Under the pieces are notes generated by a model. It saw only the letters and a program-made list of their open reading frames with translations, did not search any database and was not told the DNA's origin. A stretch of DNA of 64,000 nt from Podarcis cretensis (taxonomy: Eukaryota). The stretch spans positions 32,550,001 to 32,614,000 of the forward strand of contig OX638163.1 in assembly GCA_951804945.1 (NCBI GenBank). The letters are read 5' to 3'. Position numbers and translations under genes: made by a program. Below are positions 13,900-60,755 of the stretch, in pieces (the first letter of the stretch is position 1; each line of letters starts with the position of its first letter).

Positions 13900-14950
13900 G
13901 AGGCTAACAGGCACGATCCCTGCAACTTGCACGGGACCCGTTTTGGGACCCTCCCCGCCCCCAAAGCAAGCGGGTTCTGGACAGCTGCAGGGTGGCAGGG
14001 AGAGGGTGAAACCCCCACTTCCACCAGACCCTACAGGCAGTCCCACGCTGGTTTGTGATGTGCTCGCGTGCAGAGAAGCATGCATGCCGCGCGCGGGGAG
14101 CCGGGGGGAGCGCAGGCTTCCCCGATCTTGCTGCAACAGGCGCTGCCTGCCAGGGGCGCAGCAGAGAGCAGAGGAGGACCGGCGCTGCTGCCCGCCCGCC
14201 CGCCATCTCGCTGTCCGTGCCAGGCCGTCTCTTTCTGGCTCTCTCGTAACCGGAGAAGGGGGCGAGAGGGCGGCGCGCCGCCTGGCACGTCCCCTCCTGG
14301 CCGGGCGGGCGCCCCGACGGCGAGCAGAGGGCGAGAGGTCGGGCTGCAGTTTGGTCAGGAGCGCGTCCTTCGCGAGGGAGAAGAGGCGACCCGGTCGGCG
14401 CTGATCCCTCCTTCCCACCCCGCCGCTTAGCGTGCGTGCCCGGCAACAAGTGCGGCGCTCTGAGCCCCGATCCCGCCCGCCCTCGAGGGTCAAGCGAAGC
14501 AGCCACCCACCTCCGGAGCCGGGGCTGAGAGCCAGCCAGAGAAGGAGCAGCGCCAGCAGCCAACGCCGCACGCCCATCGCGACGCCGAGGGCCGAGCCAC
14601 GCCAGCCGGCTGCAACAGTCACGCAGCGAGCAGCAGCAGCAGCGATCGCGCCCGCTCCCGCCGCGGCCCGCCTGCATTTGTAGGCGGGCGTCGGGGGAGA
14701 CCCAGACCGTCCGCCTTGGCTCGCAGCCCGCCCGGTCATGTGGCTGCCTCCACACGCCCCCCCCCCGCGCGCGCCTGCCGCCACCTCCGCGCTCTCCTCG
14801 TGCAGCTGCCCTCCCCCTCACCCCACCCCACGCCCCACACAGCAGCTTTGCCTCCTGCGGTGGGCGAAGGACGCCCCCGCTAGGAAGAGCGGCATCCACC
14901 ACCACCCCGCCCATCTGCGGGATTTACCCCGCCCCTGACAGAGCCGTTCA
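13900..14950 (-). promoter_or_regulatory. CpG island / APLN promoter and 5' end
   Basis: Very GC- and CpG-rich. TATA-like TACAAAT on the minus strand at 14676-14682, E/M-box GTCATGTG at 14735-14742, several GC boxes, and a short (CTG)n run in the 5' UTR. Confidence 0.8.
14511..14577 (-). CDS. APLN: Apelin preproprotein, first coding exon (signal peptide)
   Basis: ATG at 14577-14575 gives MGVRRWLLALLLLWLALSPGSG plus 1 nt, then donor G|GTGGGT. A 22-aa signal peptide with a phase-1 intron resembles mammalian apelin (MNLRLCVQALLLLWLSLTAVCG|G). It sits in a CpG island, divergent from XPNPEP2 as in the conserved vertebrate arrangement. The mature-peptide exon (RPRLSHKGPMPF) was not found in the window. 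Confidence 0.88.
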
Positions 14951-20609: not shown

Positions 20610-21116
20610 AGTGGTGTCGCAACAGGGGCTGCGGGCGGTGTACCCTGGGTGCCATGTCTGGGGGGGTGACAAGAAGGCAGTATGTGGGGGCTTGCAGTAG
20701 CATGAGCAGCCATCGCGCTGCCGCAGCCGCATGTGGAGGATCCTCCGCAGCTGCAGCCACGAGCAGAGGATCCCGGCGCCAGCAGCAAAACTCTATGTAC
20801 AGCACATGTGCGGCTTTGCATGCATGCGCCGTACGTAACGATGCCGCACATGCGCTGTACATAGTGGTTTGCTGCCGGTGCTGCTTGAGCGCCGTACGGA
20901 CAGCGGTGGGATCCCTCTTTCACCACTACAGCTGTGAACGGAGGATGCTCCATTTGCGGCTGCAGCTGTGAGCAGGGGACCCCGGCACCGTCCGTACGGC
21001 GCTGGAGTGCCGGCGCCGGCAAACCGCTATGTACAGCGCATGTACGTACGCTGTACATAGCGACGCTGCACATGCGCCGTACATAGCGGTTTGCCGCCCC
21101 AGGTGTCACGACGCCT
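20610..21116. mobile_element. Probable Harbinger-like MITE with nested internal hairpins
   Basis: CpG-rich; degenerate termini GGTGTCGC...CGACGCC with GGGTGAC/GTGTCAC subterminal motifs; three internal inverted-repeat pairs. Confidence 0.55.
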
Positions 21117-34870: not shown

Positions 34871-36117
34871 GGTCCCGCCCGCCCCCAGAAAAAAGCAGGT
34901 TGGCCCCCACGGCCCTTCACTTCATCAAATCTGGCCCTTTTTGAAAAAAGTTTGGACACCACTGTGCCCTTTAGCCCTGAGCTGTGAGCCTTAGAAACTA
35001 CCCACCACCTCCAAAGTTGCCTAAGGGGAATCACCAAGCCATTTTCCTGTTTTCCTTTCTCAACCTTAGTGTGAGATGACCAAATTAATTGAACCAATTA
35101 TTCTGTTTAACAAACCACTGTCCACAAAAAAACAGTGTGAAGTAGGCAAGAACCTACCCGACCCTGCCTTCCCTTCCCAAACCATGACAAACTGGTGAAT
35201 ATAACTGCACCAAAGTGATCACCAATAGCAGTGGCTATATCTTCCTGCAAGTTACTCATATTTGAAGAGAATGAAGCTCTTCAGCAAGGAAGATACAAGA
35301 ATGTCTCACATGTCCTCAGCAATAGCAGCCTATCCATATGTCCTAGAAAACTGCCTCCATATTTTGCTTTCTAACTTTCTTTACTGATGTCAGATTTAGC
35401 TTCCATTTTTGTTTTTAAAGGTAAACCAGAATCTGGGACTCCTGCTGGGGGTTGGGGAAGAGAGAAGCAGACATCATTCCAAGTTTTACCCCCAAATTAA
35501 CTTAACTCACCTTTAGTTCACTCATACGCAGGTTAGAGAGCTTAAAAAGTTCTTTCCACAGCGGGTGTTCCCACCATGGAAAACATTTCTAAGCCCTCCA
35601 CTTTGCTTACTGGGCTCTGGGAAGGTCGCACGTGGGGTCTGGGTGCCTTAGTGAGATCACATGAGATCTTGAACGGTCCTGTGAGATCTTGTGCTGGCTC
35701 CAGAAGGTAATATGGCATGCACAGGGTGATGGTTCCAGGGAATTGTTCTGGCTTTACACAATTTTGCTTTTCCATGCTACTCCTCTGGAATGTATCCCCT
35801 ATAGAAAGCGCAATTCTCCTGTATTATATATATCTGCCTTATATTGGGTCAAGACACTGATCCATGTACCCCACTTTCCTCTGCTCTGAAAGATAGGGAT
35901 CATCCAGGATCACACGTGGGTATCTTTCCCTTCTGTTATGAGATAGGGATGGGTGAATCTGTCAATTCTGGTTTTCTCTCAGTTTCTAATTTTGCCAATC
36001 CTAAATTCAGTTCACCGCATTTTTGGATCAGTCTGCAGTTACAATTTTGAAGTCCTCGTGAAAACTTGTCAGCATTTTAGTGCAATTGTGTTTTTTTTTA
36101 TTAATATGCACATGAAG

Positions 36118-36451
36118 AGGTAAAGGTAAAGGGGCCCCTGACCATTAGGTCCAGTCATGGCTGACTCTGGGGTTGCAGCACTCATCTCGGCTTATTGGCT
36201 GAGGGTCATGTGGCCAGTATGATTAAGCCGCTTCTGGCGAACCAGAGCAGCACACGGAAACGCCATTTACCTTCCCTCCAGAGCGGTACCTATTTATCTA
36301 CTTGCACTTTAATGTGCTTTCGAACTGCTAGGTTGGCAGGAGCAGGGACCGAGCAACGGGAGCTCACCCTGTCACGGGGATTCGAACCACGACCTTCTGA
36401 TTGGCAAGTCCTAGGCTCTGTGGTTTAACCCACAGCACCACCCGCGTCCCT
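36118..36451 (-). mobile_element. Sauria SINE
   Basis: Same family; TTAATATGCACAT flanking repeat; nested in an older TAGGGATG element. Confidence 0.9.
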
Positions 36452-38974
36452 TAATAATTAATATGCACATTACTTGCATGCAATCTTCTCCAACATAATG
36501 CATTATTGTGTGTTATTTCCCCCCAATATAAGGTTTTCATGTTTGCATTCCCTGAATATACCCATTTCTGTACATATTATTTGCTGGGAGAACTACAAGA
36601 TTTGGATATGGGCACATCTTAAAAGCATGGCTCATATTGTTTCAGGAAGTATGAAGGTTCATGGAAAAATGTAAACTGAATCACATTTCTCTCCCACCCT
36701 TAAATTCTGATATCCTTTTAACTGGTGATGGGAAGGATTGAACCAGGGGAATGTGTGCTCTACCACTGAGCAAAAAAGATGAATAATTATTTCGCAGAAG
36801 GAGTGTCGGGCACTGATTTGAGAATTCCATCTGAAACAGAAACACTCTATTCCAACTTATCAGTAGCAATCCTTATGTTCCACTTGTAATAATGTCCTTA
36901 ATTGCTGCATAACAGAAAGATGCTGGCAAGAGAAGTTTTTCCCCTGGCATGATGATGCAGCAATGGAAAATTTCACCTGCTGGTTTCTACCTGTTATGCC
37001 ATGGCACAGGGCCTCAGTCCACAAAAGACAGTGTCATACTTTGCTTTTAGCATGCCATTCAACAAGTGCCTGGAATGAACATAAATATAGACCACCTAAT
37101 CCCTGATCTATTATTATTTCACATTGCACTTTTATTCTACCTTTACTCCACAGAGGTCAGAGCTCCACCCATTTTATTTTTATCATCATAACAACAACTG
37201 ACCCAGAGCTTCAATGCCATCATGACAAAACAGAGATTTCAACCAGGGTCTCCCAAATGTAGTCCAACATGCCAGCCATTACACCAAAGGATGGAAATCA
37301 GTGACCTTCCAGGTGTTGGTGGAACACCATGATCCCTGCGTATTAGCCATACTAACTAGGGACAATGGGAGTTGTTCACCTGGAGAGCCACATGTCCCCT
37401 ATCCCTGTGCCACACACTATACTGGATCTGGGCTGATTCACCCATGCATTTTTCATCATGTGATCACTGCAGCTTCCACTGAGGCCTCACGTGTGAGTCT
37501 TTACAGATCAAATGGCAGAGAAAGCTTCCATGTCATCTTAAGCACACAGTGTATTTCAGCGTGGAGCCAGTTCACACTTTCGGTTACTGGTCAGCATCTG
37601 TTTGCTGAGTAACCCAGTAAGGAGAAACCAAGTGATGTAAAGGGATGTATGAACCGGTGCTTTGTGTTCCTGGCTTTATTTTAGTCCTGTGAAAAGGATC
37701 AGGGCTTTCTGGATCAAGGGGGGTTGGGAATCCTAGGAGCTTTATGCTCCCTTCTTCAGCAGTGTTTCCAGGTATCAGCAGGCATATTGGAAAGACAGAA
37801 AAGTTGATGATTGCCTCTTCAAAGCTTAACCCCTTTCCCCTCCAAGAAACCGATTAGTGGCAATCTCTAGCGCTGCGATATAAGGACATTAACCAGCAGC
37901 CTGGGGAAGTTTATAGGAATGCAGGCTCAGAATCACCGACAAAGGGTGAGAGGTGCTGGCCCTGCCCTGTGGCCTAGCAGGCCATGACCTCTGACCTGGC
38001 TGTAAATGGTGATACTTTACAGGCTAAGCTAAGCAGCCAAGGAAGCACACACACAACCCTCATCGGCTGTATTTTTGACCTGGCTGAGTGGCCACAAGTT
38101 GTTTGCTGAAATGCCTTCTTCCTATCCTTGCACAGCTGCATCCAAGCGCAAGCGTCATCATGAGGCTGCCCAGGGAAACCCTTTTTTGTAATCCTCCCAG
38201 GGTTTGAACTAGAAAATCTGGTAACAGTCCCCTGATAGGAACTTAAAGCAAAACGGGCACTTGTGCTGCTAGCTCAGTCAATTTATGTTGGTGTCACCCC
38301 TCTCCTGTGGCCATCTGTTTATGCTCAGCTTAAGTAGAACATGTTCACAGCTCACAATCCATGCAGGTAAGGATCAATGAACAGCATTCGCTGCTGACCC
38401 CAGAGTCATTTTTGGGAAAGGACATAGATCTCTCTAATGCTGCTTTCCAAATGCTGCCAAGTTATTCAAATCATGCAAAACTGCACACATACACACAGAC
38501 ATTTTTTATCATTTATAACTTGTACTTGGTTGAATATATTGGAAAGAGATCATTTGTTCGTTCGTTTCCTCCAGAAAGGGAGTGTTTGGTGCAAGGTATT
38601 TAGAGGAGTTTCAATGTACTGAAACGCTAAGTACCGGTAACTCAGGGTTCAAGTTTAGGGTTTCCAACAGGTCAGAACAAAGTAAAAAAAACAACAACTG
38701 CCCATTTTCCTGAGGTTTGCTATGCAGAAGTCAACGAATAAAGGCTACTTGCTCATTGAGCCAGATGGAATTGCTGTTAACAGAACAGTTTCAGTTCAAA
38801 GTTAGCAGCCCTATTTTAGTTCCATCTCTTATGTGGTGTTACTCTATGGCAGCATTGGGAAAGTCAGTCTCCAGCCGTCTCATCACTTTTTAGTTTAGTT
38901 TCACCTGGCTTGATACATTGGCATATCTTTGGCTACTACTACAGTATTTGTTTATATTATTATATGTATCAGAG

Positions 38975-39336
38975 CAGACCCTCCAAGTGTCCTTATTTTC
39001 CAGGGACATCCCTGATTTAGAGAAGCTGTCCTGGTTTCTGATTTGATCCTGGAATGTCCTGCTTTTCCTTAGGACGTCCCTATTTTCATTGGGAAAATGT
39101 TGGAGGGTGTGGAGTTTTCCGATCCCTGAGCCGTCTGAAGGCAATCCTGTATAGGGAAGTTTTTTTGGGTTTTTTAAATGTTTAATGTTTTATTATGTTT
39201 TTATATGCGTTGGAAGCTGCCCAGACTGGCTGTGGAAACCCAGTAAGATGTGTGCGGGGGGGGGGGTATAAATTGTAAAATTATCATTACGGAATGGGAC
39301 ATCCCTATTTTCATTGGAGAAATGTTGGAGGGTATG
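38975..39336. mobile_element. hAT-like MITE containing an L2 3'-UTR fragment
   Basis: TIR CAGACCCTCCAA...TTGGAGGGTATG; right end duplicated; L2-like tail between the duplicated ends. Confidence 0.7.
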
Positions 39337-40993
39337 TGAGAGTTGCGGAGCTTTTTCAGCCTGAGGGCCACATTCCTTTCTGGGAAGCCTTCCAGGGGCC
39401 ATATCAGTAGTGGGTGGGACCAGAGGAAGAAGCGAGCAGAACGAAGGCAAATTTTGCCTTTTATAGGCTTTTGGCACCTTTTCTCTACCTAGATGGGCAA
39501 AATCCAAAAGGCATTATCCTATGAGGTGGTGTGTCTTGGGAAGAATTTTAAGGGCCATAGAGAGAAGTCTAGATGGCCATATTTAGTACCCAGCCCAACA
39601 CTTTCCCACTTATTTTATATATAAAGAATTTATAAGGCTTTCCACTCCGTAAATACTCAGTATCCCTGGGACAAAACGCCAAACACAAATATGGACTTGA
39701 TATTTTTTGTTTCAGATGGAAGCTTTCTATTCAGAAACCTGTTTGAAAGTCCAAATGGATTAACGTTATTCAGAAAGCCCATAGGTATTCAAATTCTAGA
39801 CAATGTTTTGCCAAGAAATGACAAAAATACTCAAGCTTCCCATTCCAACTTCACTGCAGCTTTGATTACGAAATCTATGGGATGTTGAAAGGAAGTCCTG
39901 ATGTGGATATAGGTGGCTTACTTGCCCCAGAGTGGAAAACCTTGCAGAATTTGCTACTTTGGGTTTTGTTTAAAAAAATATGTGGAGTTTAGCCTGAGTT
40001 GAAAAAGTAACTCATAATTTACCATGTTGCCAAAGGCTTGGATGACCCTGAAAAATTATGTTGTTTTGTGGGATTTTATCTTATATGGAACAAATACACA
40101 CACACAAGATTCCCTCCCCACAGTGTAACGTGAATACAATGTACATTACGGGCCTTTTAGTTTAATATTTGCTACACAAGCTTCATTCAGGTGGTCTGGA
40201 ATGTTTCTTCGAAGATCAGCAGGAGCAGTGGCTATGAACAGCGGGTGCAGAACATTAAATATTCATGTTGCTTTTTAATTGAATTTAATGCTTCTTTTCT
40301 TTCTTATAGTGTATTTTATTACTTTATATTTTGTTTCATAATGCATTCTATGAAATTCAATTTGCAATACAATAAAATACAATATAAGTAATAAAAGAAG
40401 CAATAAAAATACAATTAAAGCCATACAGCATCTAGCAGAGCAATTGCTACTACAGGCAGAAAAATCATTTAAGTGGTCCGTCAAGACCCTAAGCAATTTT
40501 CAAGTGGTCTGGGGGGTTGGGGAAGCTTAGAAACCACTGTTCTACACTGATTGGCAGCAGTTTCTCCAGGGTTTCGGGCAAGAGTCTACTTCAGTCTTTC
40601 TTGGAGATGCAAAACATGAAAAGCAGATGGTTTATCGTTAAACTATGCCCATTCTCCAAGGAATAAACTAAAAAGACAAAGCATCCAAACCATCCAGTCC
40701 CCCTCTCCTAATGTTTGGATACCTGTGCAGAATTAAATGTTACCTGGTAATATTATCCCTATCTCTGGCATAAAATGAGTAGCAAAATATGAGACCTTTT
40801 CCCCTGCCCAATAATTTTGAACAGTGCTGCGGGGGAAGATGATGCTAGGCTGAGTTATCTAGATTGCCATTAAATGAATTAAGATCCTCAAACGGCAGGC
40901 TGGTCGCCATATGAATGGCAGGCTAGAGAAGTGGCCAGTTAGGATGCTATTTTTAATTACTAGCAGCAGTGGAAAGAAAACCCTCGCCTCCTT

Positions 40994-41048
40994 GTTGCCA
41001 TGGCAACTTTAGTTCCCATCAACCTGAAACTTGGGTTGCCATAGCGAC
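40994..41048. promoter_or_regulatory. Tandem RFX X-boxes
   Basis: Perfect palindrome GTTGCCATGGCAAC at 40994-41007 and GTTGCCATAGCGAC at 41035-41048. Confidence 0.7.
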
Positions 41049-41875
41049 ATGAACTGCCAAGCCACTTTCCATTACCAGGCCCCAATAAGGAATCAAGATG
41101 GCTCCTAAAGTAGTTAGTTGGAAGTTTTCCATACCTGAAAATCTTGGGTGCTGCTATTTCTCCAGGGTGGTGGTAGAGGGTGGTGCTTATTTGCCTATGA
41201 TAATTAATATAAATGTCAAAGCACCCCCTTGATTGAACTGAGATTGATTTTAAACGCATTAAAAACCATTTCCTGAAAAATAACACTGTTATACGACACC
41301 CATTTGATGGCTAACACACGTTAAACGGGGGCTTCCTCCTTTCAAAGGACACCCCAGCATTTCAGCATGTCTCCAGCATTAGTTTCGCATTTCTCTGTAA
41401 TAAAGTCCCCCGAAATCCCTAGAAAAGTGGGGCCCTGCTTCTCAGAACCCCATAATAGAGCTATCTTCCACTCAATACAGCCCCACAAGTCTCCATCAAA
41501 CGCAGTAAGTGTGGCATGAAAATGTAATAAATAATCAATAACTCTGTTCCACGTCAGGAGAAGATCATTACTTCATGTGTCACAGGTTCAAGCCTTGCTA
41601 GTAAACTCAGGTGTTCTGGGATGGATCCTTGACTTATATTAGGGCCTTCCTGCTCAGCTGCACTAACACCAAACCTGAGATCTAGGGGCTGCCCCTGGTA
41701 ATATCATGGGGCTGAGGCCTGGAAACAGAGGTTAACTGGGAGAGGGAAACAGTGGAGGGAAGACACCCCGCCCCACCTCAGAGTAATTTGTAGGCAGGGA
41801 TAGCCCACCCATGAGGTAAAGTGAGGTGACTGCCTCATGCAGCAGGATCCACAGTGGCAGTACACCTGGCCTCCA

Positions 41876-42207
41876 AGGACTCTTGAGAGTCCAATGGACT
41901 GCAAGAAGATCAAATCTATCCATTCTTAAGGAAATCAGCCCTGAATGCTCACCCGAAGGACAGATCCTGAAGCTGAGGCTCCAATACTTTTCCACCTCAT
42001 GAGAAGAGAAGACTCTCTGGAAAAGATCCTGATGTTGGGAAAGATGGAGGGCACAAGGAGAAGGGGACGACAGAGGACGAGATGGTTGGACAGTGTTCTC
42101 GAAGCTACCAGCATGAGTTTGACCAAACTGTGGGAGACAAGGAGTGCCTGGAGTGCTCTGGTCCATGGGGTCATGAAGAGTCGGACACGACTAAACGACA
42201 ACAACAA
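41876..42207 (+). mobile_element. BovB (RTE) LINE 3' end
   Basis: Same BovB peptide (LEKILMLGKMEGTRRRGRQRTRWLD), ending in agtcggacacgactaaacgac(aac)n. Confidence 0.9.
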
Positions 42208-43114
42208 TTTTCACTCATCTGCAGATCCAATTCCATTACCTGGAGGGGACCATGCAGACCTGGAGGCTTTAGGTCAGAAATGGAGGTCTGGCAACCGTAG
42301 TTCCAGGGTTCAGCCCCAGCTATGAAAGCAGAGTCTTGACATCAATTAAACACAAAGGAACCCTAACATAACAGTATGTTCTAGCCGTGCTGTTGGAAAT
42401 ATAGTAAGGACCAGGCCTGAGTTTTAAAGAGACCTATCTCAGTTAAATCCTCTTTCATCCCCAATATGGGAAAGAGATGTGCGTCTTTGTGTGCTTGTGC
42501 AGAACCCCCTGAATTTTGTACAGTGGAAATGTACCCCCGCCCGTTGCCCCACCCATTTTGCGTTTGACTCTGCCCACCACTGGAATGTGGGCCCCAGAAG
42601 CTTACACCTAAGGGAATGTGGCCCTTAGGCTGAAAAGGTTTCCCCATCTGTGAGGTAGGTAGATGAAAACTAGAAGATAGAGAAATAGACAGATATTGCT
42701 AGGATAGCAACAGGAATCAGAAGGGGGGCGTTTCTCAAGAGTAGAGAGCATATTCCTTGGATGACAGCAGTCCCTGGTTCAGTCCTTGCCATCACCAGAC
42801 TCACAGGTACCAGGGCTGAGGGGAAACCCCATCTGAAGTTGCTAACCAGACACCACCAGATGCATTAGGAAGCACCAGGCTAGACACACCAGAGGTTTAA
42901 CTCAAAGCAGGACCACTTCATAACCGTTACTTCCTTGAACAGCCTTCTTCCTTGCAAAAGTATTCATTCAACCAGGGAACGCTAGCGCTCTCCACTGCCT
43001 CACAGCAGAACATGTTTCACCGCCATCCTGCAAACCTCCCTTTTGCTTTTCACAAAAGGGCCTCAGCACCTTCCTGAGAGCGCCAGCACCTGGCCAATAT
43101 ACAATGCGACTGGA

Positions 43115-43129
43115 CTGCCACCTAGTGGT
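43115..43129 (-). promoter_or_regulatory. CTCF core motif
   Basis: ACCACTAGGTGGCAG matches CCASYAGRKGGCR. Confidence 0.55.
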
Positions 43130-46100
43130 TTGTCCAAGATGCTTCCAGGTAGTCATTTATTATTATACGGGACATTTTGTTATTTTAAATGATTTGTTCG
43201 CTTTATTGTAGAACTCTGCATTGTCATTGTGCTTTTCTGCACTGATGGATACAACCATATGCTTTGGTCTTTGGATCCTGTGCCACTATTCATAGGCAAA
43301 ATAGGGTCAAGGGAAACTGCCTAGGAAGACCAATAGTCCATCTAGCTCAGTATTGTCCACACTGCCTGAAAGCCCACCTGGGGGGGGGGTTGAACCCGGG
43401 ACCTTCTGCATGCGAAGCAGATGATCTGTCAGTGAACTCTGGCTCCTCCTAACATCAGTGCAGGAGACTCGTAGGAGACTCTACAGCAAGGTGTTTGGAC
43501 ATTTGCTGAGATATGGAATGAGAAAAGTTGACAAATTTTCTCTACCATTAGTGTAAAAAGAATAAGACTCCAAGTTACATAGAATGCTTTGTCAGGCAGC
43601 TTCCACACCTAAGTACTTAGCAGTTTGAGACTTTGGCCTCCCCATAGCTTTCTTCCCTGTGTTCCATCATAATGTTAAGATAGGCATTCTTCTGTCTTGC
43701 CCCCACCCCATTCTTGACTAAACCTTACCTTCTTTCCCTGTTCCATCCCTATTCCTATACTATTTTAGGTGGAATTGGTGGGGACTGGATTTAAGCACTG
43801 CCTGACACTGCCCCCCCCAGGCCATCACTGCCCCCCCCCCACTTAGCCTTACCCCTGGCCCATCTCAAAACAGCAACATAAAAGCACCACCACATTTCAA
43901 GCAATCTCTGCAAGTCCATTAAGTTTTGGTCATCAGACGCCTTTTGGTTTCAACAGATTGCTGAACAAATGGCTGGATTTTGAGAATGTACAGATGTTTG
44001 GCTAAGGATAAGTCCTTCCCCTCCCACATCTTTTTTTGGATTCTAGGAAAACAAAACAAAAAACAGCTTGAGACACAATAACAGTTACAGTCACTAGTTT
44101 CCCCTCCCTGGCCATGGGCAGGGCTCGCTTTTTTTTGCTCAGCAAAGAGCAATTAGGGCTGCATATTTCCAATATGAGGGAAATGATCCAAAGGTCCGGT
44201 TTTGCTGCTGCAGCCATGTGTGGGATGCCAATGGCCATTCCTGTAGAAGGACGTCAAGCTGTAGAAACTGCAGCTGGACTTGTCTCTCTCTGTCAAGTCC
44301 AGCTCCTCAGCTTTAAAGCAGGTGGCCCAATGTCAGCCCCAAGGGAAGAGCTGGAGAATGCCCTTTGGAGACCTTGAGGAGCAGCTCTGCAGCTCCACAT
44401 GCCGTCAGCCTTCCTGAACGAGAGAGCCTTGCTATGGACTTCTGTAAAGCAGGCCCCAATGGCAACAAGATTCTGCCAAATCAACAGATGCATCATCTGT
44501 CGACACAACTTTTATCAGTATGGGGTAGGGATGTGTGGATCTGCCAATTCCAATTCTCTTGATTTCCTGTTTTTCAATCTGTGGTTAAAAACAACAACCT
44601 AAAGAAGATTCATCAGCATTTTAGTGCAAAATTTCATCTAATAAACCTGTTTTTCTATGCAGTTTGGCCTAATATAGACAGCTTTACAAAGCAATTCCCC
44701 CTAATATCACACATTTCTATGTTATTTTCATAAATATATGCAATATTATGCACAAATATATTCATTTTTGTGCATGTTACTGGGCAAGAGAAATTGCATT
44801 GCAAAATTCAAGCAATGTAAATGTAAAACGATGGCCGTTCTTTGCTTTGCATATTCTTTCACAAAGTGCAAATTTGGTAATTTTGGAATTAAAAGAGAGC
44901 TTAAATGAATGTCTTCCCCATCCCAGCTTTCCCCTAGGAAAATTCGCAGATTACCACTGAATCAGAGCAAACATTAATGAGCTTCTCTCCAGATTGATGT
45001 TTGCTACAATTTAGCAGACATTTTTAGTTTTGGGAGGGAAAGTGGTGCAGCATAGGCAAAGCCACTGAGACCAGTGTCTAGAAAGCACAGGACAACTACA
45101 AGAGTGGTTGGGCCCAGAGCAAGCAAAACAAATTCTGCATGTGTACCAGAGGCCTTGGATCTTGAAGCAACTAGGGTTCCCAACTTTTCAACAGGCTGCT
45201 TCCACCCTGTCCTTAACTGTTGCTTGGTGCGCAGCCATTAGCAGACAGCCATGCTAGTGCTGGGAGCTTCACCTGCTCAGGTAAGCTGCAGTTTCAAGTA
45301 CAATCCTCCAAGTCCAAGTGTGGCAAGCAACTTTCTTCAGAAACAAGGCATTGGCTACCCCAAGCCTGTTCTGCTCACTCTCTGATGTACCTGATTTCCT
45401 AAGCACTTTGCATGTTAAGATTTACAAATGCTTTCAGAAGACTGTGATGCACCAGCTAAGCAAGCAATGGGAAGGAGTTAAAAGTGTTGAGCTGGCCGGC
45501 TTCTCTGTGTTGGCAGCCAAGGAAGAGGCTTCCTGGGAAAGCTGCAGTGTAAGGGATTGATTTCCCTTGGAATTTGCCTTTGACTGGGTGAACGTTCTTG
45601 ATGATACAAGGCGGCTCCGTGGTAGGCGGGAGAGAGTCCTAGCCAAGGACAGCAACAATAGCAACAGTTCATTAGAAACCCCAGCAGAGCCCTCACTATT
45701 CCACAAGACAGTTCTAGGTGGATCCCTAGGACAGGACTTTGTGACGGGGTGGCAGCAGCTGCAGCACATTAGAAGAACGGAGGAAGCAGGCTGCATTCAA
45801 TATCCTTCTAACTCCTGGATTCAGCAAGTATTAAAATACATGCCAGGCTACCTTCCTGTATTGAGGTGATCTCCTGGGTTATGGGCCATTAAGAGAGCAA
45901 AGGGAAAATGAGAAGGCAACTCAGAGATACTCCTCATTCAACTCAGAGATGGTTAGAAAGGCGAAGCTGAAGTTTAAAGTAGGCAGTGATGTGATCTAGA
46001 AGAAAAGCAGCAAGCTGGAGACAGAGTCCAATCAGCATTTGAGATCCATGTTTTATTTCTGCTTGTTTCTTGGGAGAAACAAGACCCTTTGGGGGTGCTG

Positions 46101-47972
46101 ATGCTCTGCACCCCTCCATCACAGCCTAATAAAGCCTCATATATCATAAAGACACCACAGTTTTCACTGTGCTTCATTCCAAAAAGAAACACAAACCTTG
46201 GGTACCTCCAGAATCTCACACTGCTCAGAGATTGGTGGCGTGCAACAATATTCAGAAGCTCAGGAAAAGCAAGGAAATGTGAATCCAAAATGTCTGTGGT
46301 CTGTCATTACATCTCTGGACAAGTGTTTGTGGATAGATTCAACAGCAGGATTGTTACTTCTGACAGATGCCGCTCACAGTTCGCCAGAAAAAAACAGTGT
46401 GTCTTTAGGGTCACTAAGGAGTTGAAACTGAAAGGCATTGAAATACCCTTCTTGCAGTTGGCAGCAGTTGTTGGCATAGGGCTAACAACACCCCTGGAAC
46501 AGCCTGCAGGTTTTGATTGTGCCCTCCTTTCGCACAGCACTAGCAGTCAAGGGAGAAGCAGACGGAAGATTATCTTAGGCAGCAAAACTCTCGCTAAAAT
46601 CAGGGAGTGGCTAATGGAAGCTTTTCCAGGAATCTGTGCGTGCATTTCTGCACGTTAGCAGAATCATGAGAGGCTTCCCGCAATGATCATAGAGGGAGGG
46701 AGGGAGGAGGTATGATGGTGTGCCTTTTGCCAGCACCCCCGGGTGAGGATTGCCATGCCCAGAAGGAAATAAATGATGCACCAGCTGCCCGCTGAAGGCA
46801 AGTGCCTTGGCATAGCCCATGGAAAGGAAAGCAGCTGACTCTCCTGCTTCCTAGAGAGACTCCTGTTCATAGTCATGCCTTGCAGGCACAGCCGTCTCCG
46901 CTGTAATTTGAAGAGCATTTATTAGACTTACATAACCCAGGCGGATTGTGGCACTCTCTGCCAGCTGCCTTCTTGCACAGCAGAGTCAGAGCAAGGGCAT
47001 GGATGGCAAGTGAAATCCTCTAGTGTTGAAAGTCAATCTGGAAACGGCTGGGAGGGAAGCAGAGGTGTTTCTCTGGCCCTCTCGGGTACTGTACAAGCAG
47101 CGAAAGAGGCGGGCGGCAACGGAGCAAAATGTACCAGTTGTAAGAGCCAATGCCAGGCTGTTGATGCTGTTCCCATGGTGACAGCATCCCCAGGGATGCC
47201 TGAACACAGCTCTTCCACTTCTTTACCCACAGAGATGTAAGTAGCAACCCTTGCATTGTTGCCAGTGCTTGGAGTTAGCTAGTTTTGGGGGTTCTTTCCT
47301 GAAATGTTTTATTTGGGCGAATTAAGGCCCAGCTCTCTGGACTGCAGAATCGCCTTTAAAACACCCAGCCCTTACAAGTTGGGGAGGTACAGCCCCAAAC
47401 CCCATCCAAGAGCATAAACGAATTCCCAGGATCATCTTGGTAGTCTACAGCAAGTGTGGAGAACACATTCCCAAAGCGGTTTAACAACTGATCCCTCTTG
47501 CCAGCTCTGTGAAGGGAATAGGTGTCTCCTATCAACTCTCAGCACCCTTAGCAAACTACAGTTCCCAGGATGCTTTGGGGGAAGCCACAACTGATAATGT
47601 GGTATAACAGTGCTTTAAAAGTCTGGTGTGGATGAGACCATTGTTTGGTTTGCTTTAAATTGATGCTGCTGCTGCTTCTTTTGGATTTTAATATTATGTG
47701 CTTCTAACCTACCCTGGGAACTTATAGTTAAGGGCAGGCAAGAAATTTCTGAAATAAATACCTAATAATTAAATATTTAACAAATCAATGATGATGACAA
47801 TAATCATCACCACCACAGCATGCAACATAAAAGGAGTCTGGTGTACACTCAACATTTTTCCTTGAGTGGAAAATCTATTTATTTCACGTGATTCATATAC
47901 CTCTTATTGTAATAAAGCCTCAAAGTGGTTTACAAATCGTACGTTTGGACACAATTTATTAACATCATTGTA

Positions 47973-48563
47973 AAGGTAAAGGTAAAGGTAAAGGTAAAGG
48001 TAAAGGTAAAGGTAAAGGTAAAGGTAAAGGTAAAGGTACCGGTACCCCTGACTGTTAGGTCCAGTGATGGACGACTCTGGGATTGCTCATAATAATAATA
48101 ATAATTTATTATTTATACCCCGCCCATCTGGCTGAGTTTCCCCAGCCACTCTGGGTGGCTCCCAATCAAGTGTTAAAAACAGTACAGCGTTAAATATTAA
48201 AAACTTCCCTGAACAGGGCTGCCTTCAGATGTCTTTTAAAGATAGGATAGCTGCTTATTTCCTTCACATCTATAGGCCGAGGGAGCTGGCGTTTGTCTGA
48301 AGGCAGCTTCCAGGTCATGTGGCCAGCATGACTAAGCCGCTTCTGGCGAACTAGAGCAGTGCACGGAAATGCCATTTACCTTCCCGCAGGAGCAGTACCT
48401 ATTTATCTACTTGCATTTTGACGTGCTTCTGAACTGCTAGGTGGGCAGGAGCTGGGACTGAGCAACAGGAGCTCACCCTGTCATGGGGATTTGAACTGCC
48501 GACCTTCTGATCGTCAAGCCCTAGGCTCTGTGGTTTAGACCACAGCACAACCTGCATCCCTTC
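47973..48563 (-). mobile_element. Sauria SINE with expanded tail and nested L2 3' fragment
   Basis: (TAAAGG)x11 at 47971-48036; L2 3' end at ~48089-48271; TSD ACATCATTGTA at 47962-47972 and 48564-48574. Confidence 0.88.
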
Positions 48564-50274
48564 ACATCATTGTACCCTTAGTTAAACGAATGTCTACCAA
48601 ACTTTTTGCTCTTGAGCTCATGAACAATCTCTTCTGCATTACAGCACTATCTGGAATGACATTTCCTAGTGTTTTATTCAATAATGATTTCGTGCTTAAA
48701 ACAAAAACAAAACAAAAAAACTACCTTGTACTTTATTTCTTCCTTTACCACCAGGTTTCAGGCTGACTGTTTTCAAGAGAAATGCAAAACCGACCACCAT
48801 CAACTTCCTCTCTATTAAACGTCAGCAGCATCAAAGGACGATTTCCTCTGTTTATTATCTTCAGCTCCTTTCAAGTTGCTGCACTTTGGTTTTAAGCAAT
48901 CTGTGTTAGATGAAACCACAGAGCAGTTCAGCTAGGGTACATTGACTCTGATAGGACGAAACCTTCACCAGTCTGCGTACTCTGGTTTGGGGCAGGACTT
49001 GCAGTTTGAGATAAACACGGACTTCCCCAATAGCTTAACCCTTCTCCTGCCTTCAGCGGTTAGGTAATTTTAGATTCTGGAGTTATTGGGGTATGGGCGT
49101 TTGGAGTGAGAGTGCATTAACTCCACGTATTTCAGAATAAACAGCTGAGCTGCAACGTTGGGAGTGGGGCGGCTTTTGTTCATTCTGCTAAGTGGGACCC
49201 TGGACTTTTGCCCCAAAGTCCCACCCAGACTGTGCCGCTTCTTGCCTGCAAAGTTCAGTTCTCTCTTCCGATGCTCCTAAGCTCATACTGTAAATAAAAA
49301 TTCCGTTGAGGGGAAAAGAACTGCCTTGAGGGAGGGGGTGTTTTTCTTTCTTTTTCTTTCGCAATATTTTTGTTTTGTTTTCCAAAAAATAACTGGGTAC
49401 AAGTCTAGTAATATAATACAATCTCCACCAAAATAAAAATAATAAAAATCATTGAGTTTGTAGTGTCATTTCAAGCATATTCTTAAGACGTTAATGGTTA
49501 AAATAGCCTCTCCACAGCCAAATTTGAGTAGTTGGTGGAAGTGAATTGTTATCTTCTTCCCTTACATATGAAAAGAAAGAAGATCAGGTTTCAACAAAGG
49601 TATCTCTCTTTGTAACAACTTTTGCTACGCTCTTAAGTGACAGCCAGATCCCAAATGTTGTTGAACCATACCTGGAGGCGTAGCTTAGGCTGAAATTTCC
49701 AAAACTCCGTTTATCTTGAGCAGATTTTGCAGTTTCACACATTCCCTACACTAAAAAGGAAAGGAAACCTGAACTAACACAAAGCGATATTTGCCGTTTC
49801 CGTGATGGTTTCTCCATAGAAGTCAGTAGTTCTTATCTACTGTAATAGTAGATTCATTTATGACTCTGCCTTAGTTAAGTAGCTTAACAGGGAGAAAAAC
49901 AAGAGTACTTTAAGAGTATTTGCAAGTAACAAAAGCATTACTTGGCCAAAGAGGAAGGTGAAGGAGAAGAGGAGCTTCTGTCCCAAAAGAAGGTGTTTTA
50001 ATATAGTTTGGGCAGTTTTGCCTAAGTATGGAAACTGAGCACATTGTACCCTTGTGTATATGCTGTAAACAGCATTTCTGTAAATGCTATCTCTGACATT
50101 GCCTGTCACATAGGTACTTAATAAGCATAGAACCTCACGTGCCTGATCCCCTGCTTTTTTCAAACTTGACATTATCGTTATCAGCTTTCCAACCAAACAA
50201 CTTTTTTTTTTACAACTCCACGTTTTGTATCCACCTGCACACTAAAAAACAACAACCACCACAACCACACACAG

Positions 50275-50319: not shown

Positions 50320-53300
50320 TTATTATTTGTACCCCGCCCATCTGGCTAGGTTTCCCCAGCCACTCTGGGCGGCTTCCATAAAAACCAAAAATACACTAAA
50401 ATATCACAGATTAAAAACTTCCCTGAACAGGGTTGCCTTAAGATGTCTTCTGAATGTCAGCTAGTTATTTATCGCTTTGACATCTGATGGGAGGGCGTTC
50501 CACAGGGCGGGCGCCACTACCGAGAAGGCCCTCTGCCTGGTTCCCTGTAGCTTTGCTTCTCGCAATGAGGGAACCGCCAGAAGGCCCTCGGCACTGGACC
50601 TCAGCGTCCGGGCAGAACGATGGGGGTGGAGACGTTCCTTCAGGTATACTGGGCCGAGGCCGTTTAGGGCTTTAAAGGTCAACACCAGCACTTTGAATTG
50701 TGCTCGGAAACGTACTGGGAGCCAATGTAGGTCTTTCAAGACCGGTGTTATGTGGTCTCGGCGGCCGCCCCCAGTCACCAGTCTAGCTGCCGCATTCTGG
50801 ATTAGTTGTAGTTTCCGAGTCACCTTCAAAGGTAGCCCCATGTAGAGCGCATTGCAGTAGTCCAAGAGGGAGATAACTAGAGCATGCACCACTCTGGCGA
50901 GACAGTCCGCGGGCAGGTAGGGTCTCAGCCTGCGTACCAGATGGAGTTGGTAGACAGCTGCCCTGGATACAGAATTGACCTGTGCCTCCATGGACAGCTG
51001 TGAGTCCAAAATGACTCCCAGGCTGCGCACCTGGTCCTTCAGGGGCACAGTTACCCTATTCAGGACCAGGGAGTCCTCCACACCAGCCCGCCCCGTCCCC
51101 CAAAAACAGTACTTCTGTCTTGTCAGGATTCAACCTCAATCCATTAGCCGCCATCCATCCTCCAACCGCCTCCAGGCACTCACACAGGACCTTCACCGCC
51201 TTCACTGGTTCTGATTTGAAAGAGAGGTAGAGCTGGGTATCATCTGCATATTGATGAACACCCAGTCCAAACCCCCTGATGATCTCTCCCAGCAGCTTCA
51301 TATAGATGTTAAAAAGCATGGGGGAGAGGACGGAACCCTGAGGCACCCCACAAGTGAGGGCCCAGGGGTCTGAACACTCATCCCCCACCACCACTTTCTG
51401 AACACGGCCCAGGAGGAAGGAGCGAAACCACTGTATAACAGTGCCCCCAGCTCCCAGCCCCTCTAGACGGTCCAGAAGGATGTTATGGTCGATTGTATCA
51501 AAGGCCGCTGAGAGATCCAGCAGAACTAGGAAACAACTCTCGCCTTTGTCCCTAGCTCGCCGGAGATCATCAACCAGCGCGACCAAGGCAGTTTCAGTCC
51601 CATGATGAGGCCTGAATCCCGATTGGAAGGGATCCAAATGGTCCACATCCTCCAGGCGTGCCTGGAGTTGTTCAGCAACCACGCGCTCAATCACCTTGCC
51701 CAAGAATGGAAGATTTGAGACTGGGCGATAGTTGGCCATACTGGCCGGGTCTAAAGATGGTTTTTTAAGAAGCGGTTTAATGACCGCCTCTTTCAGCGGA
51801 TCTGGGAATGTTCCCTCACAGAGGGAAGCATTCACCACCCCGCAGAGCCCATCACCCAGCCCATCCCGGCTTGCTTTTATTAGCCAGGATGGGCAAGGAT
51901 CCAGGAGACAGGTGGTTGGTTTCACGCGTCCAAGCAGCCTGTCCACATCCTCGGGGGTAACGGATTGAAATTGATTCCATGCAACTTGACCAGATAGAGC
52001 TCCAGCACTCTCCCGCCCCATCCCTGCTCCCACGGTGGTGTCTAGCTCCTTCCAAATATGAGTGATTTTATCTGCAAAAAACTTTGCAAAATCGTTGCAG
52101 GAGATCTTGGGGTCTTTACGAGGCCCCGGTGGTAAAGGTGGTTCCGTTAAATTACGAACCACCTGAAAGAGTCTCCTGCTACTATTTTCTGCAGATGCAA
52201 TAGAGGCGGCGAAGAAAGTATTCTTCGCCATCGCTATCGCCACTTGGTAGGCTCGACGTTGAGCTCTAACCTGTGTCCGGTCAGATTCGGAGTGAGTTTT
52301 TTGCCACCGACGCTCTAGCCGTCTCAGCGATTGTTTCATCGCCCTCAGCTCCGAAGAAAACCACGGGGCTGTCCAGGCTCCATGCAATAGGAGAGGGCGC
52401 TTCGGAGCCAGACAGTCGATAGCCCTGGTTAACTCCACATTCCAGCGGGCCACCAGGGAATCAGCTGAAAGGCCATCAACATGGGATAAAGCATCCCCTA
52501 CCACTCTCTGGAAACCATTTGGATCCATTAAGTGGCGGGGGCGGACCATCCGAATTGGTCCCACCTCCCTGCAGAGGGGAAGGGTCGCGGAGAAGTCCAG
52601 TTGCACCAGGAAGTGATCTGACCATGGCACTTCTTTTGTTTAACTTTTACTTAGTGTCAGATCACCCACGTCACTAGAGGTGAACACCAGGTCTAAGGCA
52701 TGTCCATGACTATGAGTTGGGCCAAACTTATTCAGGGACAGCCCCATGGAGGCCATGCTTTCCACGAAGTCCCGAGCAGCCCCTTGTAAGGTCGTGTCGG
52801 CATGGATGTTAAAATCCCCTAGGACAACCAAACTAGGTGTCTCCAGGAGAAAATCCGCCACGACCTGAAGCAGCTCAGACAGGGAATCCTTGGTGCAGCG
52901 GGGAGGTCGGTACACCAAAAGGAATCCTGTACTGCCCCTATTGCCCAACTTCCAGAACATGCACTCAGAAAACTGGATCTTCCCAGTAGGACGCCTGGTG
53001 CAAGCTAGTGACTTCCTAAAAATCCCCGCCCCCTCCCCGCCCCCTCCCCGCCCACATGACCTGGGTTGCTGTGCGTAAGAGAAACCTGGTGGGCAAGCAG
53101 CGGCAAGGACAGGCCCATCTGCTTCCTCCAACCAGGTCTCTGTCACACATGCCAGGTCAAATCCTCCATCCACAATCAGGTCGTGGATGGCAGTGGTTTT
53201 ATTCATCATTGACCTGGCATTACACGGCAACACCTTCAGGTCATGTAGGTTTCCCCTGTTGATTCCAGTATCCATCCGGTCAAGGCCAGACCTGGAGGCA

Positions 53301-53640
53301 GGGATAGTCTTCAAACAACGACTAAACCTGCCTCCTCGGTAATGACATGGTCTGGTCTTAGCGTAACTCCGCCTCCTGCCCATGATCACCGAGATCGGAT
53401 GTCCCAGTGCTTCCCCCCCTGTGGAACTTGTCCCAGCCATCATGTTGGCTGGGGCCCCACTCCCAGGCAGCCCTGATCCCGCCCCTTAAAAACAAGACAC
53501 AAACTATACAGAACCAATAGAACAACAACAAAAAGGAACAGAACAATTATACTAAAATTAATCCCCAACCAAATATCCCACCCACCCACCCCCAACAATG
53601 GAAAAAAGGAAATAAAGAAATAAAAATTTAGTGAAATCCC
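50278..53640 (-). mobile_element. Near-complete L2-clade LINE (APE endonuclease + reverse transcriptase ORF2), disabled
   Basis: APE domain in ORF 52640-53443 (VTETW, LGDFN). RT in 51056-52630 (QSGFR, LLDLSAAFD, GVPQGS, YADD). C-terminal LHWLPVRFRAQFK in 50461-51081. (TAT)n 3' tail at 50278-50319. In-frame TAA at 52640-52642 and a frameshift near 51095. The 5' boundary is approximate. Confidence 0.93.
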
Positions 53641-54029: not shown

Positions 54030-54225
54030 GAATAATATTAACTAGCTGTCTTGCTTAACTGCAAAAAAAAAAACACTAGAAAGTGTTCCAAGAAATAACA
54101 GGACTCCTCTGGAAGTTGGACTTTGCACCCCCATCATGTGCCTCATTATCTGTTTGTTTTATCTGGTGAACATAACCTGATCTCTGGAGCGCAGAGACTT
54201 ATGCAATCTGGAAAGTTATCAGGGC
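54030..54225 (+). promoter_or_regulatory. XPNPEP2 proximal promoter with HNF4/GATA/HNF1-like/C-EBP/FOXA motifs
   Basis: TGGACTTTG (HNF4) 54117-54125; TTATCT 54146 and 54159, TTATCA 54216 (GATA); GAATAATATTAAC (HNF1-like) 54030-54042; TTATGCAAT (C/EBP) 54199-54207; TGTTTGTTT (FOX) 54151. All lie 130-330 nt upstream of the ATG. Confidence 0.6.
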
Positions 54226-54355
54226 TCTCTTGGGCCACTCTGCCACAAGACACACACATCTGTAGTGGCAGACACAGGTCTTCTAGTGCTGGCCGGTGTT
54301 TTAATCTTTCTTCAAAAACCTTACCTTGCTGAAGAGTCTCCAGTCTGAAAAGGAC

Positions 54356-54404
54356 ATGGCCTGCTCTACCCGCATCATAGCAGTCTGGATTTTTCTTCTT
54401 CATG
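54356..54404 (+). CDS. XPNPEP2: Xaa-Pro aminopeptidase 2 (membrane aminopeptidase P), coding exon 1 (signal peptide)
   Basis: ATG gives MACSTRIIAVWIFLLH plus G (49 nt), donor GTATGT. Phase 1 matches exon 2. Hydrophobic signal-like sequence. Confidence 0.82.
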
Positions 54405-56845: not shown

Positions 56846-57045
56846 GGGAAGAGCCATAGCTCAGTGGCGGCAGAGCATTTGCTTAGCATGCAGAAGCTCC
56901 CAGGTTCAGTTCCCAGCTTCTCTGGATAGGGCTAGGAGTGCTCCCTGCCTGAAACTCTGGAGAGCTGCTGCCAGCTAGTGCAAGAAATAAAGAGCTAGAT
57001 GGACCAATGATCTGACTCCACAGAACAGCAGTTCCCTACATTCCA
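56846..57045 (+). mobile_element. Short tRNA-Ala-derived SINE (possibly Squam2-like); other copies near 6680, 10667, 23490(-), 24290(-), 25000, 43310(-), 57690
   Basis: A-box TAGCTCAGTGG, B-box GGTTCAnTCC, conserved body CCTGAAACCCTGGAGAGCTGCTGCCAG, TTCCTATG-type tail. Confidence 0.7.
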
Positions 57046-58302: not shown

Positions 58303-58376
58303 GCCTCATCACAGGTTACCCCAGGAAAAGAAGTTCTGACTCAGAAGACATCAGAAACTGTACAATCACTCCTCCG
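58303..58376 (+). CDS. XPNPEP2: XPNPEP2 coding exon 2
   Basis: Acceptor ttttttAG, 74 nt, (G)LITGYPRKRSSDSEDIRNCTITPP, donor GTGAGA. Resembles mammalian ...DVRNCSTNPP. Confidence 0.9.
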
Positions 58377-59344: not shown

Positions 59345-59455
59345 CACTTGCCTCCTACAGTCACCAATACAAGTGAGCGCCTGAGCACCCTGCGGCTGCA
59401 CATGCAGTCTCACAACTTCTCTGCCTACATCATTCCTGCCACGGATTCACACATG
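59345..59455 (+). CDS. XPNPEP2: XPNPEP2 coding exon 3
   Basis: Acceptor tttcAG, 111 nt, HLPPTVTNTSERLSTLRLHMQSHNFSAYIIPATDSHM, donor GTAAGG. Carries the aminopeptidase P N-domain motif AYIIPxTDxH. Confidence 0.95.
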
Positions 59456-60691: not shown

Positions 60692-60755
60692 AGTGAATAC
60701 ATTGGTGAACGGGACAAGAGGCTATCCTGGATGACAGGCTTCACAGGATCGGCAG
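60692..60755 (+). CDS. XPNPEP2: XPNPEP2 coding exon 4
   Basis: Acceptor tttcccAG, 64 nt, SEYIGERDKRLSWMTGFTGSA plus G, donor GTAAAT. Conserved GFTGSAG motif. Confidence 0.95.

What the first reader, a model, noticed from the sequence alone, without database searches (positions are those of the whole stretch)
40994..41103. Orphan RFX-type promoter: two X-boxes 41 bp apart plus CCAAT and YY1-like motifs, far from either known gene start
Seen: a perfect 14-bp palindrome GTTGCCATGGCAAC and a near-perfect GTTGCCATAGCGAC, spaced about four helical turns, followed by CCAAT (41082) and CAAGATGGC (41094). Two such sites together are unlikely by chance. Known: X-boxes of this form are bound by RFX1-3 and typify promoters of cilia and spermatid genes; neither APLN nor XPNPEP2 is a classical RFX target. 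Inference: the promoter of a hidden transcript, or an RFX enhancer.
Basis: partly seen in the sequence, partly recalled or inferred. Interest (0 to 1): 0.7.

Follow-up and report, generated by a model that had tools for sequence, protein, structure and literature searches.

The report
Paired RFX sites, probable distal enhancer
Two strong matches to the binding site of RFX transcription factors sit 41 bases apart in single-copy DNA between the apelin and aminopeptidase P2 genes; they are likely an ordinary distal RFX-bound enhancer, and no hidden gene was found beside them.

Summary
Both X-boxes are real (40994-41007, 41035-41048) and far beyond chance: a strict pair occurs at 4 loci in the 1.5-Gb genome against under 0.001 expected. 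The element is single copy by four tests. It lies 26.4 kb from the APLN ATG and 13.3 kb from the XPNPEP2 ATG, outside any CpG island. The promoter reading is not supported by the added motifs: CCAAT occurs near 16 of 40 control palindromes and in 90 of 202 random tiles; the YY1-like 9-mer is rarer (2 of 202) but imperfect. Being 'orphan' is normal: 35 of 40 sampled perfect palindromes lie outside CpG islands, and in mouse about two thirds of RFX ChIP peaks lie outside promoters (PMC7498320, PMC4498915). No coding gene was found nearby. Transcription start, RFX binding and deep conservation could not be tested. Best reading: a homotypic RFX enhancer, likely with weak promoter activity of the kind shown in PMC4971761 (0.55); a tissue-restricted promoter stays open (0.25). 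A new member of a known kind. The scan's earlier notes held nothing similar.

The parts
40994..41007 (.). X-box 1, perfect 14-bp palindrome
   Evidence: Sequence; one of 84 exact copies genome-wide. Unchanged in DNA runs X4 and X7; one low-depth contig of run X1 reads G>A at 41003, which may be an error.
41035..41048 (.). X-box 2, 12 of 14 identical to box 1, carries one of the few CpGs of the region
   Evidence: Sequence; spacers behind the two boxes match at only 10 of 27 (p 0.14), so not a recent tandem duplication. Unchanged in X1, X4, X7.
41082..41086 (+). CCAAT pentamer, at background frequency
   Evidence: 16 of 40 control palindromes and 90 of 202 random tiles also have one.
41094..41102 (+). 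YY1-like 9-mer CAAGATGGC, imperfect; significance uncertain
   Evidence: 2 of 202 tiles, 0 of 40 controls; its 22-nt context is unique in the genome at up to 2 mismatches. YY1 consensus recalled.
40859..41055 (.). Stretch covered by one unspliced 197-nt contig (depth 3.7) of a run guessed to be RNA, from a related organism; spans both boxes
   Evidence: run X1. May be DNA; shows no start or strand; the run was picked for holding part of this stretch.
14511..14577 (-). APLN coding exon 1 in a CpG island, 26.4 kb from the element (context, candidate target)
   Evidence: Signal-peptide frame and donor; exon 2 ending in the apelin peptide lies just left of the window (peptide motif recalled).
54356..54404 (+). 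XPNPEP2 coding exon 1, 13.3 kb from the element (context, candidate target); exons 2-4 at 58303-58376, 59345-59455, 60692-60755
   Evidence: Exon frames and splice sites; a downstream exon matches Xaa-Pro aminopeptidase 1, PDB 3ctz, E 2e-9. Paralogue name from the signal peptide and recalled synteny.

Best explanation
The two X-boxes form a single-copy, CpG-poor homotypic cluster that likely binds two RFX1/2/3-type dimers and would act as a distal enhancer in RFX-rich cells (ciliated, neural or germ cells). Shown: two near-consensus sites, far beyond chance, unique flanks, 13 and 26 kb from the nearest gene starts. Inferred from established RFX biology: each palindrome binds one dimer; bound RFX opens the site and gives weak, probably bidirectional eRNA-type transcription; the site loops to a promoter in the domain. 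The target is not shown; XPNPEP2 or APLN are the nearest, OCRL (promoter-like CpG island 132 kb left) and a CpG island with its own X-box-like site 147 kb right are alternatives.
For: Pair statistics. Single copy: one DNA match in the genome, unique 25- and 22-nt flanks at 2 mismatches, flat one-contig depth over 40692-41087 in two whole-genome runs laid at 80% likeness. Boxes share 12 of 14 while spacers share 10 of 27. 35 of 40 sampled palindromes and 8 of 17 relaxed pairs lie outside CpG islands; 3 of 40 palindromes have a second relaxed box within 100 bp, against one other relaxed site in the 64-kb window, so clustering is a regular feature. Passages read: under a third of RFX1-3 peaks are in promoters (PMC7498320); about a third of RFX2 testis peaks (PMC4498915); RFX motifs are biased to distal enhancers and give them promoter activity (PMC4971761); Rfx2 binds promoters and enhancers equally and sits at loop anchors (10.1101/085571).
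Against: No binding, chromatin or reporter data. No constraint shown: differences in relative X7 near the pair are not significantly low (1 within 150 bp against 2.9 expected, p 0.17), and the X1 contig differs inside box 1. The APLN, XPNPEP2, OCRL-side and ZDHHC9/UTP14-side promoter regions have no relaxed X-box, so the 'RFX at both loop ends' model has no near partner. The strongest RFX2 peaks are enriched at promoters (PMC4498915), PMC5838959 calls distal functional X-boxes the exception, and 9 of 17 relaxed pairs here sit in CpG islands.
Confidence: 0.55

Rival explanations
1. CpG-poor, tissue-restricted promoter of an unannotated transcript: a lncRNA in either direction, or a distal first exon spliced into XPNPEP2, fired by RFX2/3 in spermatids or ciliated cells.
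For: Tandem RFX motifs alone generate promoter activity without TATA or CpG (PMC4971761); strong RFX2 peaks are promoter-enriched. A TATA-like word at 41208 and a donor-like GTAAGT at 41505 lie on the plus strand. Two runs guessed to be RNA each hold one low-depth contig at 40618-40817 and 40859-41055. This genome has a multi-copy CpG-poor promoter-like module built round an X-box, so such promoters are plausible here.
Against: CCAAT is at background. The X1 contig runs unspliced across both boxes with no loose end listed, and may be DNA. No Pfam hit in nearby frames; the 46-codon frame before the donor has no homologue among longer proteins (a weak negative); a 10-base insertion in relative X7 at 41180-41181 would shift the frames 41098-41229 (+) and 40963-41259 (-). 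XPNPEP2 already has its own first exon 13 kb away.
Confidence: 0.25
2. Remnant without present function: an old local duplication of one X-box, or a decayed copy of a repeat-borne X-box promoter.
For: Repeats do carry X-boxes in this genome: of 4 strict pairs one lies inside a copia-like polyprotein frame and one is a tandem duplication in a multi-copy module; 5 of 17 relaxed pairs are tandem-like by flank identity. No significant constraint in close relatives; a possible change inside box 1 in organism A.
Against: No paralogue at 80%. The 100 nt behind box 2 score no better against 11 representative copies of the X-box module than 10 of 80 control flanks or 103 of 500 shuffles. Flanks at the 41-bp period match 22-37% while the boxes match 86%, which a neutral duplication would not keep.
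Confidence: 0.2

Closest known systems
RFX-motif distal enhancers with promoter-like activity (Nguyen et al. 2016, PMC4971761; passages read)
   Same: Near-perfect RFX motifs far from gene starts, no CpG island, no obvious core promoter; the paper shows better motif matches give more promoter activity.
   Different: Shown in mouse cortical neurons on CREBBP-bound sites; here no binding, eRNA or reporter data exist.
Rfx2-bound distal sites at chromatin loop anchors (Quigley and Kintner, 10.1101/085571; passages read)
   Same: Distal Rfx motif in an AT-richer setting that could loop to a promoter.
   Different: No forkhead motif within 400 bp by a simple pattern, and no X-box at the nearest promoters.
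X-box promoters of cilia and spermatid genes (PMC4498915, PMC5838959, PMC7498320; passages and one section read)
   Same: Same 14-bp motif class; a Y-box is among motifs enriched in RFX peaks.
   Different: Those boxes lie mostly within 500 bp of a start site; here the nearest known starts are 13 and 26 kb away and the CCAAT is at background frequency.

Membership tests
X-box (RFX1-3 site) | 14-bp imperfect inverted repeat matching the RFX consensus | tested here: met
   Both boxes match GTYRCYATRGYRAC exactly; consensus recalled, 14-nt length confirmed in PMC4498915 passages.
X-box (RFX1-3 site) | Bound by an RFX factor in vivo | not testable with these tools
   No ChIP or binding data.
RFX target-gene promoter | Within about 500 bp of a transcription start site | tested here: inconclusive
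   Known starts are 13.3 and 26.4 kb away; only contigs, no raw RNA reads, were offered, so an unannotated start cannot be seen.
RFX target-gene promoter | A downstream gene or exon | tested here: inconclusive
   No Pfam hit in 121 frames of 36000-50000; one sub-cutoff hit in 94 frames of 15500-36000; short exons and non-coding exons would be missed (the true XPNPEP2 exon 3 also gave no hit).
CpG-island promoter | GC at least 0.5-0.55 and CpG o/e at least 0.6 | tested here: not met
   GC 0.43-0.45, o/e 0.24-0.26.
Distal enhancer | Single-copy intergenic cluster of transcription-factor sites | tested here: met
Distal enhancer | Open chromatin, H3K27ac, reporter activity or loop to a promoter | not testable with these tools
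   No such data.
Conserved non-coding element | Lower divergence than flanks across species | tested here: inconclusive
   Only close relatives (about 1-3% apart); p 0.17-0.70.
Dispersed repeat | Other copies of the flanking sequence in the genome | tested here: not met
   copies under about 80% identity from an unknown family are not excluded.
Structured RNA or tRNA gene | Rfam or ARAGORN match | tested here: not met
   0 Rfam matches at E up to 1 in 36000-46000; the only tRNA-like call is at 56848-56924.

The most novel reading that the evidence does not exclude
The pair is a stand-alone, CpG-poor RFX promoter with a preferred 37-41 bp two-dimer spacing that puts an unannotated first exon of XPNPEP2, or a lncRNA running toward APLN, under the cilia/spermatid programme in reptiles. 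The hint for spacing: all 5 non-tandem pairs with 24-54 bp spacing fall at 37-41 bp (p 0.002, post hoc; 5 of 12 over 24-85 bp, p 0.06; one of the five looks by eye like a 20-bp array).
Probability: 0.12. Interest if true: 0.55.

Novelty: new member of a known kind. Interest (0 to 1): 0.2.

Why it matters
As a distal RFX site it is one of thousands expected in a vertebrate genome and matters little. It is still one of the strongest X-box pairs in this genome and the only pair in 464 kb around it, so it is a clean candidate for testing whether apelin, aminopeptidase P2 or OCRL receives RFX input. If it proved to be a promoter of a hidden testis or ciliated-cell transcript it would add a gene or isoform to a well-known locus.

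Tried and rejected
RNA: no RNA holder listed for 40560-41860; this is no evidence either way. In the two runs guessed to be RNA no contig covered 41056-41700; a hole in contigs proves nothing. The 20-kb lay was swamped by repeats; 221 joints were not shown, none of the 15 shown touches the element, so splicing to XPNPEP2 could not be judged. Repeat origin: rejected at 80% identity. By-eye resemblance of box 2's flank to a multi-copy X-box module: not significant. Recent tandem duplication: rejected. Hidden coding gene: no support; the wide HMMER search over protein representatives was not run, so distant homologues of short frames remain open. Structured RNA: none. A ZNF143-like reading of the spacer was considered from memory and dropped as a poor match, not tested. 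Helical phasing: spacings of other pairs show mixed phases. A genome search with PF00557 did not hit this locus (short exons), so the gene was identified by motifs and a PDB match instead. Literature: searches for XPNPEP2+APLN+RFX (1 paper), apelin+enhancer+RFX (19), XPNPEP2+testis+alternative promoter (0), APLN+XPNPEP2+lncRNA (2), RFX+homotypic+X-box+enhancer (1) gave, by listing only, nothing on this interval; subscription papers and supplements were not seen. Xie et al. 2007 (RFX1 motif frequent in conserved non-coding elements) is recalled only; it is not held.

Full report
Observation. The genome is a 1.5-Gb vertebrate assembly, window at G000:C19:32550001-32614000; that it is a lizard is my inference from the look of its repeats and was not tested.

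Chance. The exact palindrome occurs 84 times, with 0 for the reversed control, against 5.9-14.9 expected from order 1-4 Markov models built on this window only. A strict pair 12-42 bp apart occurs at 4 distinct loci, ours included, control 0, against 0.0002-0.0008 expected. The pair is not chance. The extra motifs are weaker. I fetched 40 of the 84 palindrome sites (the first listed, leaving out the C3 pair already held as L002): 16 of 40 have CCAAT within 150 bp, as do 90 of 202 random tiles of the window; the YY1-like 9-mer is in 0 of 40 and 2 of 202.

Position. APLN exon 1 starts at 14577 on the minus strand in a CpG island; its peptide-coding exon lies just left of the window. XPNPEP2 exons 1-4 are at 54356, 58303, 59345 and 60692, and a later exon matches Xaa-Pro aminopeptidase 1. 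The element is therefore intergenic, 26.4 kb and 13.3 kb from the two start codons, with GC 0.43-0.45 and CpG o/e about 0.25. Across 464 kb there are 9 relaxed X-box sites; ours is the only pair; none lies at the APLN, XPNPEP2, OCRL-side or ZDHHC9/UTP14-side promoter regions; one lies in a CpG island 147 kb to the right (gene names other than OCRL rest on recalled motifs).

Is it a repeat? A 281-bp DNA search found only itself (the tool skips very common words). The 25-nt spacer and the 22-nt YY1 context are unique at 2 mismatches. Two whole-genome contig sets laid at 80% likeness give flat, single-contig depth over 40692-41087; one run has a short extra piece in the bin 41088-41131. The check mattered, since 2 of the 3 other strict pairs are repeat-borne: L002 lies in a copia-like frame and L003 in a multi-copy module. 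That module has at least 26 matches, one of them 92 kb from our element. Our box 2 flank resembled it by eye, but its score against 11 representative copies was reached by 10 of 80 control flanks and 103 of 500 shuffles, while true members score 23-107 against our 3.8. A recent tandem duplication is unlikely: spacers match at 10 of 27, p 0.14.

Is 'orphan' unusual? No. Only 5 of 40 sampled palindromes lie in CpG islands, and 3 of 40 have a second relaxed box within 100 bp. Relaxed pair searches (reversed controls 1+2 and 0) gave 17 distinct loci after merging overlaps; 9 of 17 are in CpG islands, 5 of 17 tandem-like. [quoted passage not shown] Against this, PMC5838959 section 9 calls distal functional X-boxes the exception.

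Is there a hidden transcript? No Rfam match in 36000-46000. No Pfam hit in 121 frames of 50 aa or more in 36000-50000 and one sub-cutoff hit in 94 frames of 66 aa or more in 15500-36000; this test misses short exons, as XPNPEP2 exon 3 shows. Two frames that overlap the element would be shifted by a 10-base insertion in relative X7. A plus-strand model with a TATA-like word at 41208 and a donor at 41505 holds a 46-codon frame without homologues among longer proteins (weak). Two runs guessed to be RNA each hold one unspliced low-depth contig, 40859-41055 across both boxes and 40618-40817; they were selected for holding part of the query, may be DNA, and show neither start nor strand.

Conservation. 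Only close relatives were reachable. X7 differs at 17 letters plus 10 inserted over 1301 bases, none in either box; counting the cluster at 41177-41196 as one event, 1 of 12 events lies within 150 bp of the pair against 2.9 expected, p 0.17. X1 reads G>A at 41003 inside box 1 in a single contig of depth 3.7. This is inconclusive.

Mechanism. Shown: two near-consensus X-boxes, unique flanks, intergenic and CpG-poor position. Inferred: two RFX dimers bind, open the site in RFX-rich cells, give weak local transcription and loop to a promoter in the domain (0.55). Rival: a true tissue-restricted promoter (0.25). Rival: a remnant (0.2). The target gene is unknown. The 41-bp spacing is not a shared helical phase, though non-tandem pairs cluster at 37-41 bp (5 of 5 within 24-54 bp, p 0.002; 5 of 12 within 24-85 bp, p 0.06; post hoc, and L093 looks like a 20-bp array), while relaxed second sites in the 40 controls fell at 29, 35 and 69 bp.

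Verdict. Real and probably functional, but an ordinary class of element. Five literature searches found nothing on RFX control of this interval by listing. The scan's earlier notes held nothing near this place and one unrelated bacterial note by words. Interest 0.2.

Noticed in passing
L061:9250-9400 (G000:C19:32499270); L155:9162-9700; L157:550-1060; copies on C3, C4, C5, C6, C9, C10, C15: A dispersed multi-copy module: GC-box, X-box, CRE-like TGTGACATC, TATA-like TTAAAAG, then in the copies read an 84-90 aa frame without Pfam match. At least 26 matches, 10 of them arrayed 8-17 kb apart on C9 at 63.26-63.37 Mb. It looks like a spermatid-type promoter of an expanded gene family or a non-autonomous mobile element (inference). 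Possibly more interesting than the finding itself.
   Followed up: partly
L004:1500-1590 (G000:C13:18325905): Three X-boxes 37 and 39 bp apart in CpG-poor DNA; with L090, L095 and our element it forms the 37-41 bp spacing group.
   Followed up: partly
L002:1500-1570 (G000:C3:6241745): Two perfect X-boxes and a third near-match inside a copia-like polyprotein frame, made by a short tandem duplication.
   Followed up: no
L088, L091, L093 (C1:3.50 Mb; C4:57.38 Mb): Tandem arrays whose unit carries an X-box, in L088 alternating with YY1-like words.
   Followed up: no
window 50461-53485 (-): LINE copy with endonuclease and reverse-transcriptase frames broken by a stop and a frameshift, under 1 kb upstream of XPNPEP2 exon 1.
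   Followed up: no
window 54117-54312: HNF4-like and HNF1-like words upstream of the XPNPEP2 ATG (motifs recalled, seen by eye), in keeping with a kidney/gut promoter.
   Followed up: no
window 56848-56924: tRNA-Ala-like call by ARAGORN inside XPNPEP2 intron 1, probably the head of a tRNA-derived SINE.
   Followed up: no
window 20845-21046: 99-bp inverted repeat with 4-nt loop, 73% complementary, in a CpG-rich patch.
   Followed up: no
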